A stretch of DNA of 64,000 bases. It comes from a virus (taxonomy: Duplodnaviria > Heunggongvirae > Uroviricota > Caudoviricetes). Positions 30,001 through 33,000 of the stretch are shown piece by piece. A program made the position numbers. The stretch covers positions 158,796-222,795 of IMG/VR virus record IMGVR_UViG_3300049044_000033. One strand, written 5' to 3'. Within the stretch, counting starts at the first letter, position 1. The number at the start of each line of letters is the position of its first letter.

Positions 30001-33000
30001 CCTGCGTGGACAGTCTGGGGTTCGAACCCAGGACCTACGGTTTAAGAGACCGTCGCTGCTACCGACTGAGCTAACTGTCCATTGGGGCATAAATGCCCTT
30101 TGGGGTGAAGGACGGGAATCGAACCCGCGGCATCCAGGACCACAACCTAGCGTTCTACCATTGAACTACCGACACCATAAAGAACTAGTGTGCTTCTACG
30201 CCAAAGAGGGATATGGGCAGACAACCATCAAGCTGCCAACCCTCTCACTTTCCGGTTTATCCCGTGCCACAGGTCTTACCCTTTTACCGGGAGACATTAC
30301 GCAGCAGTCGGGCCTTCGCCTCACTCATTATAGGATGGCTGCTTCTAGGCCAACCTCCTAGTTCTTGGATGCCCGACTAGGGTTCGAACCTAGAACCTTC
30401 TGAGTCAGAGTCAGACGATCTACCAATTGATCTATCGGGCAATGTTTGGTGACCCATGGGGGAATTGAACCCCCGTTCTCGCCTTGAAAGGGCGCGCTCT
30501 TAACCACTAGAGGAATGGGCCATGTAGGTTTAGATGCCCCTCGAGGGATCGAACCTCGGTTGTTGGTTTCAGAAACCATTCTCTTACCATTAGAGGAAGG
30601 GGCAATATTAGGGATATTTAACGACGCGTACCCTTGAGATCGTCGCAACATAAAGTTGGTAGCCCGACGGAGGATCGAACTCCGTTTGCCGCGCTGAGAA
30701 CGCAGATTATTACCAATATAAGACCGGGCCATGGTCAAGTTTGAGCCGGCCGCCTGCCAGCGGAGCCGAGGAAGTGGCAGCTTCCAACAACGTAGCCGCT
30801 TTTCCTTCGCGACTTTGCCATTTCTTGGAGGACTAGGTGGGGTTCGAACCCACAAGGGATATTATCCGTCGCATTAAGAGTGCGGTGAGCCAACCAATTG
30901 CTCAACTAGTCCAAGAGCTGATTCACAGCTTAGAATTATTCAGCGTGGGCAAAGGGGTTTGAACCCTCACAAACAGTTGGGAAGACTGTCATGCTACCGT
31001 TACATCATGCCTACATGGTCAACGGGCAAGTGGCGAAGAGGATGTTTTTCCCGGCTTTACCAATTTGCCTATCCCCCGTCAAATGAGCACAAGTGCTGGT
31101 CGGGGGAGGAGGACTTGAACCTCCAAACAGGGTCTCCTAATGACGATAACCCTCAATCAATCGGCCCGTTGGAGCTCTAGAGAGGACTCGAACCTCCTCA
31201 CCAGCCTTCGCAGGGCTAGGTCCCATCCAGTGGGCTAGAGCATGTTTGGTCCCAGGGGCACACCACTTGAGCAGTTAATTACTCTGCTCGTGAAGGCTTA
31301 GTAGGAGGTTCCGGCTGATGATTTCAGTCTCCAACGGCCCCTGGAATAATATTGGTCGCGGTGACAGGACTCGAACCTGCAATCTCTTGTTCCCGAAACA
31401 AGCGTGATACCACTTTCACTACACCACGAAATAGCCCTATGACAACTTTCAGGGCTTGTTGTCTCTGGCTCCCAAGGAGGGACTCGAACCCCCACGCTTT
31501 CGCACCTGGTTAACAGCCAGGCGTATCTACCAGTTTCACCACTTGGGAATGATTTGTGGGCAAGTTGAGGATTGGACGTTTTCGGTGCTACCACTACACT
31601 ACAGAGTCATTGCTGACTCTGCTAGGACTCGAACCTAGCCTCGCTTTTTTCAAGAAAGATAACCCAAGCCATTCGGCCCACAAATTCAGTCGGGATAACA
31701 GGGTTCGAACCTGTGACCTCATGTCCCCCAGACATGCGCGCTACCACCTGCGCTATACCCCGATGTTAACGGAACTTCATACCGAACAAAGTGTTACCGC
31801 GCCGTTTGCGGGCTTTCTTCTTCGACATTGTTCCTCTGTTAATGGTCTTTGGAGACCATTGTGATTTATCATGCTCTGCATTTACTGTTGCCAGTGATGG
31901 AGCATATTCATTGTCTTTTAGCATCTTCCGATGCCTACTTTTTGCTGTCTTCTTATACATTTGTAACCGATCAATGAGGAGTGATATCGTTCTCCTCAGT
32001 CGACTAAGCATGTTACCACACTTTGTCAACTCTTTTGGATTGCTAGGACGAAGCCTTCACAATCCCAGGTGGTCGTATAAGGATATCGACCACCGCCAAC
32101 CCAGCCGTAGCTAGTTAGCTCTCCTTTTTACTCCGGGGGTAATTTAACCGCCCCGTTTCATCCGGCTCATGCGCCCATTCAGGTTTATTTAAAGTGGCTA
32201 TCCCGCGGTCTCGTTCCGCACTTACCACTTGACACTTCGTAAGTTCCTTGTTACATTTACTTACGGAGTAGTCTGGATCATTACGTTACCGTAACATCTC
32301 CGATCTGTGTTTAGCAGCTTCTAAATCCGCTGTCAACAATTATTTTTGCTGACCTCTAAATTTATTTTCTGCTGTCGTTTCCGACGGTTAGTGTTGAATA
32401 AAAAAGCCCCGGAGTTTCCTCCGGGGCTTTGTTTCTCTGGATTGTTGGAAGACCTTAGTCTGTCCATCCTTCCTGGGAAACTGCCCCGGTCATATCAAGC
32501 TTATAATTGCTTTCTGGACGGGCTGGAATTGTACCGCTACGCTGCGACCATTCGGTGCCCATAGCGACGACGGTAAAGGATGCAGCTTTCAAGCTGGCCT
32601 TTCCGCATAGCATATGAGTTCCTTGGTTCAACATAGAAAGTCTCAATTCCTTTTCAATTTCGTGGACACCGTTGTGGTGACCGCTCTATTTATTATGCCA
32701 TTCAGTCTAGCTGTCAAGCACAAATTTCGCCACGCTGTAGAAAAAGTTTCCTACGTTGTGTTCGGACTGTATAATGCAATCCTACTAAGAAAGTTGCAGA
32801 AGCGTCAATTTATTTTTCAACGTTTCTACTTTCAGTGGAGAATGTCGGACTCGAACCGACCACCTCATGCTTGCAAAGCACGCGCTCTCCCAGATGAGCT
32901 AATCCCCCAATAACTTTATGCTACCAACACTCCCGAACCCTCTCGGTAAAGCCGTGCTTCTCACTTGGCGTTTGTTAGCATAGGACGTTGCCGCCCTTTA

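What the first reader, a model, noticed from the sequence alone, without database searches (positions are those of the whole stretch)
31552..31685. Permuted Ser(TGA)-anticodon tRNA without a long arm; fills a gap in the decoding set
Intact Ser tRNAs in this window have GGA, CGA and GCT; the only canonical-loop TGA copy is this permuted one, which argues for function. It lacks the long variable arm that bacterial SerRS recognises, so it may be charged by the phage SerRS, mischarged, or act as a decoy.
Basis: partly seen in the sequence, partly recalled or inferred. Interest (0 to 1): 0.75.

Follow-up and report, generated by a model that had tools for sequence, protein, structure and literature searches.

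The report
Phage Y RNA with tRNA-shaped core
The "back-to-front serine tRNA" is real as a shape, but it is most likely one of at least seven tRNA-shaped Y RNAs that this 462-kb phage makes as partners for its own Ro60 protein, not a missing decoder: ARAGORN finds a normal long-armed tRNA-Ser(UGA) 3 kb outside the window.

Summary
At 31552-31685 (minus strand) a 10-bp terminal helix encloses a complete cloverleaf in permuted order: anticodon arm, T arm, closed acceptor hairpin, D arm.

The interpretation does not hold. The terminal helix carries the two published YrlA motifs, GNCGAAN0-1G and YUAY. A covariance model built only from such tRNA-array elements also finds RNAs just upstream of Ro60 genes, on the same strand. 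It does so in this phage, four related huge phages, mycobacteriophage Bxz1 and 7 of 7 bacterial loci.

The phage encodes a full Ro60 (TROVE plus vWA). All helices covary. In this element and its two closest homologues the acceptor is a sealed 8-bp hairpin capped by a GNRA tetraloop, with no CCA.

ARAGORN finds a class-II tRNA-Ser(UGA) with CCA 3.1 kb left of the window, so there is no decoding gap. In sister elements the "anticodon" changes between orthologues.

Verdict: a YrlA-type Y RNA, a known kind already described as resembling circularly permuted tRNAs. Its particular features are a full anticodon-arm mimic, many paralogues per genome and a position in the tRNA array. This scan has reported similar phage Y-like RNAs on other DNA. 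No expression data were available.

The parts
31676..31685 (-). Lower (terminal) stem, 5' strand AUUUGUGGGC. Its last bases start the Ro60-binding motif.
   Evidence: Perfect 10-bp inverted repeat with 31552-31561. Two pairs changed on both sides in the G004 orthologue, three in the Phosso homologue.
31670..31677 (-). GCCGAAUG, matching the YrlA motif GNCGAAN0-1G. CGAAU (31675-31671) lies in the internal loop.
   Evidence: Read from the sequence. Motif definition from Chen et al. 2014, PMC4201824. G/CCG/A invariant in 14 aligned members.
31663..31670 (-). Upper stem, 5' strand GGCUUGGG.
   Evidence: Pairs with 31569-31576. Helix 2 is 87.5% paired, has 4 pairs with changes on both sides and a conserved mismatch at its third pair.
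31659..31662 (-). UUAU, the conserved YUAY of YrlA; a single-stranded linker into the tRNA-like core.
   Evidence: GGGUUAUC invariant in alignment A2. YUAY described in PMC4201824.
31643..31658 (-). Anticodon-arm mimic: C28-U31, loop CUUGAAA (31654-31648, 'anticodon' UGA 31652-31650), A39-G42, C43.
   Evidence: 5-bp stem once G27 (31583) pairs with C43. In homologues 27:43 is G-C or C-G and 3 of 5 pairs covary with L017. Split-stem test: 16/27 perfect against 7.4 +/- 1.6 with swapped tails, 0 of 2000.
31639..31642 (-). Short variable loop GAGG; no long arm.
31622..31638 (-). T arm CUAGG-UUCGAGU-CCUAG.
   Evidence: Rfam YrlA partial match covers it. A-U to G-C compensatory change in the orthologue.
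31602..31621 (-). Closed acceptor hairpin: 7 bp (31621-31615 with 31608-31602), an extra A-U pair (31614 with 31609) and the GNRA tetraloop GCAA (31613-31610). No CCA.
   Evidence: 8/8 pairs. The G004 orthologue has G-GAAA-C and L017 has C-GAAA-G at the same place. Four or five pairs changed on both sides per homologue.
31583..31601 (-). U8 A9, D arm GUGU-AGUGGUA-GCAC (31599-31585), C26, G27.
   Evidence: The UA dinucleotide and the D-loop GG are conserved YrlA and tRNA features.
31577..31582 (-). Linker AAAACG back to the Y stem.
   Evidence: AAAAC conserved in family alignment A2.
31569..31576 (-). Upper stem, 3' strand UCCAAUCC.
31552..31568 (-). Internal-loop 3' side UCAACUU (31568-31562), then lower stem 3' strand GCCCACAAAU (31561-31552).
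   Evidence: CUUGCCC invariant or nearly so in A2..
31689..31762 (-). tRNA-Pro(GGG) directly upstream, with a 4-nt gap. It leaves no room for a separate promoter, so co-transcription is inferred.
   Evidence: ARAGORN and Rfam.
31466..31548 (-). Long-armed tRNA with anticodon GUU directly downstream (3-nt gap). RNase P cutting at its 5' end would set the 3' end of the Y RNA (inferred).
13422..31175 (-). Span holding six sister Y RNAs with tRNA-like cores (13422-13565, 16149-16308, 16317-16460, 28168-28304, 29738-29884, 31016-31175) and three short or partial ones (18609-18681, 23968-24042, 24996-25100).
   Evidence: Model R1 gives 61-125 bits for the six and 27-40 bits for the three.
2493..3773 (-). 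Phage seryl-tRNA synthetase ORF with the N-terminal arm domain.
   Evidence: PF02403 at 50.7 bits in a 429-aa open frame at G000:162236-162553. ORF list.

Best explanation
It is a YrlA-type Y RNA, a small non-coding RNA of about 135-140 nt.

Shown: its two ends pair into a bulged helix that carries the Ro60-binding signature, and its middle folds into a complete tRNA look-alike (D arm, anticodon arm, T arm, sealed acceptor hairpin).

Inferred:
- It is transcribed with the tRNA array. The enzymes that trim the flanking tRNA-Pro and the GUU tRNA cut it free.
- The terminal helix is bound by the phage's own Ro60 protein.
- The tRNA-shaped module then acts as gate or tether, bringing Ro60 together with a tRNA-binding or RNA-degrading partner. 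Host PNPase plays that role in the Deinococcus, Salmonella and Thermus-phage systems.
- It does not decode UCN codons and is not serylated.

It is one of at least seven such RNAs in this genome, each with a different tRNA-like body.
For: (1) Both published YrlA motifs are present, GCCGAAUG (GNCGAAN0-1G) and UUAU (YUAY). The published order V/T/acceptor-hairpin/D is also present.

(2) Rfam YrlA matches the T-acceptor-D core: 23.3 bits, E 0.01. The sister element at 13425-13563 passes the gathering score of RF01656; from my own knowledge this family belongs to the nematode stem-bulge RNAs, regarded as Y RNA homologues.

(3) The genome encodes a full Ro60: TROVE 152.9 bits plus vWA_Ro60 191.6 bits.

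(4) Model R1 was built only from tRNA-array elements. It also hits, upstream and on the same strand as the Ro60 gene:
- in G000 (310362-310536, with the Ro60 ORF at 307431-309113);
- in G001, G002, G003 and G005;
- in mycobacteriophage Bxz1 (50.9 bits), where Rfam YrlA also gives a partial hit;
- in 7 of 7 bacterial Ro60 loci.

(5) TROVE is present in 8 of 10 other contigs carrying the clamp and in all complete ones. The two without it are 60% and 22% complete.

(6) Every helix is kept by compensatory change.

(7) The acceptor is a closed 8-bp hairpin with a GNRA cap and a covarying closing pair in the three closest members.

(8) ARAGORN calls a class-II tRNA-Ser(UGA) with CCA at G000:155583-155674.

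(9) Loop triplets differ between orthologues of sister elements: UUG against UGA, UAG against UGG, AUC against UCU.

(10) A phage Ro60 binding phage Y-like RNAs and host PNPase has been shown experimentally for Thermus phage phiLo (PMC12135203).
Against:
- The Rfam YrlA gathering score (69 bits) is not reached.
- This copy lies about 118 kb from the Ro60 gene, whereas published YrlAs lie within 4 kb.
- The 7-nt loop CUUGAAA is identical in three homologues while the stem beneath it covaries, and it equals the loop of the phage's class-II tRNA-Ser(UGA). The loop sequence itself may therefore matter, and a plain tether model does not explain that.
- The Phosso homologue has ACCA in an open 10-nt acceptor loop. 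Ten of 27 family members have NCCA there. Some members may therefore be opened by RNase P, as M. smegmatis YrlA is.
- The effector of the tRNA-like module is unknown even for model YrlAs.
Confidence: 0.82

Rival explanations
1. It is a Y RNA whose displayed anticodon loop is the working part. Each of the seven or more RNAs would be an anticodon-specific decoy or sentinel for a host tRNA-cleaving defence nuclease, or for a tRNA-modifying enzyme or synthetase. Ro60 and the phage RNA ligases would handle the outcome.
For: - It has a full 5-bp, 7-nt anticodon arm with U33 and a purine at 37. The bacterial Ro60-adjacent relatives have no such hairpin loop there.
- The loop CUUGAAA is identical in three homologues over a covarying stem.
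- The phage carries 62 ARAGORN tRNA calls, a T4 Rnl1-type ligase (119.5 bits) and an Rnl2-family ligase domain (75.7 bits). This toolkit is known from conflicts over tRNA cleavage (PMC7824862).
Against: - Loops change freely between orthologues of sister elements.
- No nuclease target is known and there are no experimental data.
- Three identical loops among related sequences is weak statistics.
Confidence: 0.1
2. It is a true circularly permuted tRNA gene. The transcript would be cut at the clamp, its ends joined and the acceptor loop opened, giving a short-armed tRNA(UGA) that is charged and used in translation.
For: - The rejoined halves give a perfect cloverleaf.
- M. smegmatis YrlA is opened by RNase P and gets CCA (PMC4201824).
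- Wang et al. raise the possibility of further processing.
- The phage encodes RNA ligases.
Against: - The junction is not a 3-4-3 bulge-helix-bulge motif; it is a 5x7 internal loop, an 8-bp helix and two linkers.
- There is no RtcB.
- The acceptor is sealed by a GNRA tetraloop with a covarying closing pair, and there is no CCA.
- There is no long arm for the arm-bearing phage SerRS.
- An ordinary tRNA-Ser(UGA) is called elsewhere.
- The same clamp sits on RNAs with no tRNA part and on RNAs next to Ro60 genes.
Confidence: 0.04
3. It is an ordinary but degenerate tRNA gene at 31614-31687, as called by ARAGORN and Rfam, followed by a stray tRNA 5' half. Equivalently, it is a decaying remnant of a tandem tRNA duplication with no function of its own.
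For: - ARAGORN calls tRNA-Ser(tga) at 31612-31688. Rfam tRNA scores 29.4 bits against a cut-off of 29.
- YrlAs are thought to descend from dimeric tRNA transcripts.
Against: - That reading needs an A.G mismatch in the acceptor and a D arm made from the Ro motif.
- The downstream strand pairs 7/7 instead.
- ARAGORN makes no such call in the G004 orthologue or in L017, and in only 4 of 30 family members.
- Compensatory changes preserve the permuted helices, which rules out neutral decay.
Confidence: 0.03

Closest known systems
YrlA (Y RNA-like A, Rfam RF02553) of Salmonella, Mycobacterium smegmatis and mycobacteriophages, bound by Rsr/Ro60 (Chen et al. 2014, PMC4201824; Wang et al. 2018, bioRxiv 10.1101/312249)
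   Same: - GNCGAAN0-1G and YUAY motifs.
- The 5' and 3' ends pair.
- T arm, closed acceptor-like hairpin and D arm in that order.
- The UA linker and D/T-loop nucleotides needed for the tRNA elbow.
- A 7-bp acceptor, as in M. smegmatis.
- The genome encodes Ro60.
- My model cross-detects the Ro60-adjacent RNA of Bxz1 and of seven bacterial loci.
   Different: - It scores below the Rfam gathering score; so does the Bxz1 locus.
- The Y stem joins at position 27/28 through two single-stranded linkers, leaving a complete anticodon stem-loop. In S. Typhimurium YrlA the Y stem replaces the anticodon stem-loop.
- Both strands of the Ro helix are conserved.
- There are seven or more paralogues per genome with different tRNA bodies.
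- It lies in the tRNA array, 118 kb from Ro60.
Yrl1/Yrl2 with phiRo60 of Thermus phage phiLo (PMC12135203)
   Same: Phage-encoded Ro60 with phage-encoded Y-like RNAs that have a terminal stem and a CGAA-bearing internal loop. Binding and a complex with host PNPase have been shown there.
   Different: No tRNA-like module is mentioned in the passages I read. Those RNAs lie next to the Ro60 gene, and there are two of them rather than seven to eleven.
Circularly permuted tRNA genes of Cyanidioschyzon merolae, some green algae and Thermofilum (Soma et al. 2007, as cited in 10.1101/312249)
   Same: The 3' half lies upstream of the 5' half, the acceptor is closed by a loop, and the termini are brought together by a helix.
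   Different: Those have a bulge-helix-bulge motif cut by the splicing endonuclease and yield working tRNAs. Here the helix is a Ro60 site. No RtcB was found, the splicing endonuclease was not searched for, and the acceptor is capped by a stable tetraloop.
Metazoan Y RNAs and Deinococcus Yrn1
   Same: A bulged terminal helix. Chen et al. compare the YrlA motif with the vertebrate GGUCCGA; here it reads GGGCCGA. [quoted passage not shown]
   Different: Rfam Y_RNA gave no match at E up to 10. Animal Y RNAs have no evident tRNA-like module.

Membership tests
YrlA-type Y RNA | GNCGAAN0-1G motif near the 5' end (proposed Ro60 contact) | tested here: met
   GCCGAAUG at 31677-31670. GCCGA is conserved in 14 of 14 aligned members.
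YrlA-type Y RNA | Conserved YUAY following the stem | tested here: met
   UUAU at 31662-31659, inside the invariant GGGUUAUC.
YrlA-type Y RNA | T arm, then closed acceptor-like stem-loop, then D arm, with tRNA elbow nucleotides | tested here: met
   Rfam YrlA positions 31-81 align to 31638-31585. U8 A9, A14, GG, A21 and UUCGA are present.
YrlA-type Y RNA | 5' and 3' ends pair into a stem, supported by covariation | tested here: met
   The lower stem has 7 and the upper stem 4 pairs with changes on both sides. 0 of 500 shuffles reach the observed values.
YrlA-type Y RNA | Reaches the Rfam RF02553 gathering score (69 bits) | tested here: not met
   A 23.3-bit partial match. The Ro60-adjacent RNA of mycobacteriophage Bxz1 also reaches only 32.5 bits, and none of seven bacterial Ro60 loci passes. 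The cut-off therefore misses this branch.
YrlA-type Y RNA | Encoded within about 4 kb of a Ro60 gene on the same strand | tested here: not met
   This copy is about 118 kb from the Ro60 ORF. A sibling with the same clamp lies 1.25 kb upstream of it on the same strand, and the same holds in G001, G002, G003 and G005.
YrlA-type Y RNA | Homology to RNAs at known Ro60 loci | tested here: met
   Model R1 gives 50.9 bits in Bxz1 upstream of gp220 and 33-65 bits upstream of Ro60 in 7 of 7 bacterial loci.
YrlA-type Y RNA | Bound by Ro60/Rsr in vivo | not testable with these tools
   Needs co-immunoprecipitation or a gel-shift assay.
Circularly permuted tRNA gene (processed to a working tRNA) | 3' half upstream of 5' half with complementary acceptor strands | tested here: met
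Circularly permuted tRNA gene (processed to a working tRNA) | Bulge-helix-bulge junction and machinery to cut and rejoin it | tested here: not met
   The junction is a 5x7 internal loop plus an 8-bp helix plus linkers. No RtcB. The splicing endonuclease was not searched for. Rnl1- and Rnl2-type ligases are present.
Circularly permuted tRNA gene (processed to a working tRNA) | Mature joined tRNA exists and is charged | not testable with these tools
Bacterial tRNA-Ser | Long variable arm (class II body) | tested here: not met
   The variable loop is 4 nt, GAGG. The phage's class-II Ser tRNAs are 86-92 nt long.
Bacterial tRNA-Ser | Free acceptor end with CCA or a site for its addition | tested here: not met
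   The acceptor is closed by A-GCAA-U, and equivalently in two homologues.

The most novel reading that the evidence does not exclude
The huge-phage Y RNAs are not just tethers. They would be a panel of complete tRNA mimics held on Ro60, each showing a particular anticodon loop; this one shows the tRNA-Ser(UGA) loop. The panel would serve as anticodon-specific bait or alarm for host tRNA-cleaving defence enzymes, or for tRNA-modifying enzymes, linking Ro60 and its exonuclease and the phage Rnl1/Rnl2 ligases to protection of the phage's own set of about 60 tRNAs.
Probability: 0.1. Interest if true: 0.8.

Novelty: new member of a known kind. Interest (0 to 1): 0.3.

Why it matters
It removes a false lead: there is no split serine tRNA and no hole in the phage's decoding set.

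It adds a well-supported case to the poorly understood phage Ro60/Y RNA systems:
- These 200-470-kb phages carry several to about a dozen Y RNAs embedded in their tRNA arrays.
- Their tRNA-like cores include a whole anticodon arm.
- All helices are supported by covariation.

A cultured relative, Sinorhizobium phage Phosso, carries unannotated homologues, so Ro60 binding, processing and the unknown effector of the tRNA-like module can be tested at the bench.

It also shows that ARAGORN and the Rfam tRNA model can mislabel such RNAs as tRNA-Ser, and that the Rfam YrlA cut-off misses this branch.

Tried and rejected
- My first idea was that the UGA hairpin is a long variable arm and the real anticodon lies at the break. 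I dropped it. With G27 pairing to C43 the hairpin gives exactly 1 nt (26), a 5-bp stem, a 7-nt loop with U33 and a 4-nt variable loop. The split pairs covary across the family.
- A distant blastn of the region against GenBank phages found only the neighbouring tRNA-Pro.
- Rfam Y_RNA gave no match at E up to 10.
- A search for a parent tRNA in the phage found at best 52 of 71 identities, the 95th percentile of unrelated tRNA pairs, so there was no recent capture.
- RtcB is absent.
- Rfam could not confirm the class-II tRNA-Ser(UGA). Its tRNA model gave no match on that stretch, and the other two long-armed Ser tRNAs are absent from its window and genome tRNA lists. That call therefore rests on ARAGORN and on body similarity (63-65 identities to the other two).
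- Ser(GGA) was not found.
- The supplement of Chen 2014 and the Sim et al. 2020 review were not held.
- MAFFT misaligned the D stem and the anticodon region (A2, A4). I left those pairs out of the model and counted them with my own parser instead.
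Full report
WHAT IS THERE

The window is part of a 462,455-bp virus record with terminal repeats (G000). ARAGORN finds 55 tRNA genes in the window and 62 in the genome, nearly all on the minus strand.

The finding's coordinates are exactly the two arms of a perfect 10-nt inverted repeat, 31552-31561 and 31676-31685. Read on the minus strand, the interior holds these parts in order:
- a hairpin with loop CUUGAAA;
- a 4-nt loop;
- a T arm;
- a 7-nt strand, a short loop and its perfect 7-nt complement;
- UA and a D arm.

Joining 31608-31583 to 31658-31614 gives a flawless 71-nt cloverleaf. The permuted cloverleaf, the UGA triplet and the missing long arm are therefore all real.

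IS IT A tRNA GENE?

ARAGORN and the Rfam tRNA model also offer an unpermuted reading, 31612/14-31687/88, at 29.4 bits against a cut-off of 29. That reading needs a mismatched acceptor and a D arm built from what turns out to be a conserved protein-binding motif. ARAGORN makes the same kind of call in only 4 of 30 relatives, and not in the closest ones. I treat it as a by-product of the genuine tRNA-like 3' half.

THE LEAD

A note from this scan on a sister element (e1-5442259) proposed a Y RNA. I tested that idea independently.

Chen et al. 2014 (PMC4201824) define YrlA RNAs by these features:
- a GNCGAAN0-1G motif near the 5' end;
- a conserved YUAY;
- then a 'V' stem-loop, a T arm, a closed acceptor-like stem-loop and a D arm;
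- the two ends paired.

Wang et al. [quoted passage not shown]

The element reads GCCGAAUG at 31677-31670 and UUAU at 31662-31659, and it has that exact order. Rfam YrlA aligns to its T-acceptor-D core (23.3 bits, E 0.01). The sister element at 13425-13563 passes the gathering score of RF01656. From my own knowledge this family belongs to the nematode stem-bulge RNAs, which are regarded as Y RNA homologues.

THE PROTEIN PARTNER

The genome encodes a 560-aa protein with TROVE (152.9 bits) and Ro60-vWA (191.6 bits) domains at G000:307431-309113.

FAMILY AND COVARIATION

A pattern scan of IMG/VR for the clamp plus a T loop found 17 loci, several of them in phage contigs of 199-465 kb.

One contig (G004) holds an orthologue 88% identical to the element. 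It has compensatory double changes in the lower stem (2), the T stem (1) and the acceptor (5 of 8 pairs).

In a 14-member alignment the four main helices are 93.8% paired, against 70% after shuffling and 36-51% when the partners are slid. Twenty-one of 30 pairs show changes on both sides.

I built a covariance model, R1, from these tRNA-array elements.

LINK TO Ro60

One of the weaker ones lies 1.25 kb upstream of the Ro60 ORF on the same strand.

The same arrangement, an R1 hit 0.3-2 kb upstream of the TROVE gene on the same strand, recurs in G001, G002, G003 and G005. TROVE is present in 8 of 10 other clamp-bearing contigs and in every complete one.

R1 also gives a full-length 50.9-bit hit in the gap upstream of the Ro-like gene gp220 of mycobacteriophage Bxz1. 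Rfam YrlA gives a 32.5-bit partial hit at the same place. R1 further hits upstream of Ro60 in 7 of 7 bacterial MAG loci fetched with the phage Ro60.

The clamp is therefore the hallmark of Ro60-associated RNAs. Binding itself is inferred, by analogy with Salmonella, Mycobacterium and Thermus phage phiLo, where it has been shown.

ANATOMY OF THE tRNA-LIKE CORE

In the bacterial relatives the helix that closes the T/acceptor/D junction is a 4-6-bp helix in the place of the anticodon stem. It runs on towards the Y stem, with no hairpin loop in place of the anticodon loop.

In the phage elements the junction is shifted. One to four nucleotides after position 26 pair with the 3' extension of a hairpin, so that together they make a 5-bp stem under a 7-nt loop, usually with U33 and a purine at 37. 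Sixteen of 27 distinct elements give 5/5 pairs, against 7.4 +/- 1.6 when the downstream halves are swapped among elements (0 of 2000 permutations). Relatedness inflates this figure somewhat.

For this element the break is at 27/28:
- G27 (31583) pairs with C43 (31643).
- L017 has C-G there and three covarying pairs in the stem.
- The Phosso homologue has two covarying pairs.

The published 'V' stem-loop may therefore be an anticodon-arm mimic in this branch. That is an inference and needs structural data.

WHY IT IS NOT A SERINE DECODER

1. ARAGORN calls a 92-nt class-II tRNA-Ser(UGA) with encoded CCA at G000:155583-155674, 3.1 kb left of the window. Its body resembles the Ser(CGA) and Ser(GCU) genes. 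Two caveats apply: two of its five anticodon-stem pairs are non-standard, and the Rfam tRNA model found no match there; the other two long-armed Ser tRNAs are also missing from its lists.
2. The element's acceptor is sealed. It has 8 bp capped by GCAA. The orthologue has G-GAAA-C and L017 has C-GAAA-G, so the closing pair covaries. There is no CCA.
3. The phage SerRS keeps the N-terminal arm domain. From textbook knowledge, that domain reads the long variable arm, which this RNA lacks.
4. In sister elements the loop triplet differs between orthologues: UUG in G000 against UGA in G001, UAG against UGG, AUC against UCU.
5. No RtcB was found, and the junction is not a bulge-helix-bulge motif.

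WHAT REMAINS OPEN

- The loop CUUGAAA is identical in three homologues and equals the loop of the phage's class-II tRNA-Ser(UGA). The loop may be read by something.
- Ten of 27 family members, including the Phosso homologue, carry NCCA right after the acceptor 3' strand. Some may therefore be opened by RNase P and keep a CCA end, as M. smegmatis YrlA does.
- The phage has Rnl1- and Rnl2-type RNA ligases, consistent with a conflict over tRNA integrity.
- The effector of the tRNA-like module is unknown.
- No expression data could be obtained.

PROCESSING (INFERRED)

The element is flush between tRNA-Pro(GGG), 4 nt upstream, and a long-armed GUU tRNA, 3 nt downstream. It probably has no promoter of its own and is released by the tRNA-processing enzymes.

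COMPARISON AND NOVELTY

This is a YrlA-type Y RNA. Phage YrlAs have been known since 2014, and phage Ro60-Y RNA particles have been studied. The particular features here are the full anticodon arm, conservation of both strands of the Ro helix, seven to eleven paralogues per genome with different tRNA bodies, and a position in the tRNA array.

This scan has already reported phage Y-like RNAs with permuted tRNA modules beside Ro60-like genes on other DNA, and a sister element of this genome was read the same way.

A cultured relative, Sinorhizobium phage Phosso, offers an experimental system. Its genome is 469 kb and its Ro60 is 52% identical to this phage's. It has three strong R1 hits in unannotated gaps.

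Noticed in passing
window 10532-10607 and 23891-23964 (minus): Two short-bodied 'tRNA-Ser(tga)' calls by ARAGORN share the odd loop CGUGAAG, with G at position 33 instead of U. The first scores 48.6 bits with Rfam tRNA, the second only 26.6. What they decode, if anything, is unclear.
   Followed up: partly
window 18609-18681, 23968-24042, 24996-25100 (minus): Three further RNAs carry the same Ro-type clamp (G[AG]GCCG[AG]A...GGGUUAUC...CU[UA]GC[CU]C) with little or no tRNA-like core. Two are minimal, at 73-75 nt. One has only a T-arm-like hairpin.
   Followed up: partly
G000:310362-310536 (minus), outside the window: A 175-nt clamp-bearing RNA lies 1.25 kb upstream of the Ro60 ORF (307431-309113) with one 215-aa ORF between them. 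Its interior is not tRNA-like.
   Followed up: partly
window 31466-31548 (minus): The downstream neighbour is an 83-nt tRNA with a long variable arm, anticodon GUU (Asn) and an encoded CCA. That is an unusual body for that anticodon.
   Followed up: no
window 23778-23865, 29483-29568; G000:155583-155674: The Rfam tRNA model gave no match on the stretch holding the class-II Ser(UGA), and the other two class-II Ser tRNAs of this phage (86-92 nt) are missing from its tRNA lists. ARAGORN finds all three. Automated annotation relying on the covariance model alone would under-count Ser tRNAs here.
   Followed up: partly
L063 (CAINGU010000031.1, 'uncultured cyanobacterium' MAG contig, 110 kb): The Ro60 gene sits among 22 tRNA genes and several R1 hits. 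This looks like a phage-type tRNA array and may be a phage contig binned with a cyanobacterium.
   Followed up: no
L014 (IMGVR_UViG_3300009034_002981): One 47-kb contig fragment holds at least seven R1 hits packed head to tail within about 3 kb (1087-4084 of the locus). The contig also encodes a TROVE protein.
   Followed up: no
PV764938.1:19150-19294, 24183-24326, 24420-24565: The cultured Sinorhizobium phage Phosso has three strong Y RNA matches in gaps with no annotated feature.
   Followed up: partly
G000:400394-400948 and 329034-329519, outside the window: A T4 Rnl1-type RNA ligase and an Rnl2-family ligase domain are encoded, while RtcB is absent. Together with Ro60 and about 60 tRNAs this suggests a tRNA-repair or protection toolkit.
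   Followed up: no
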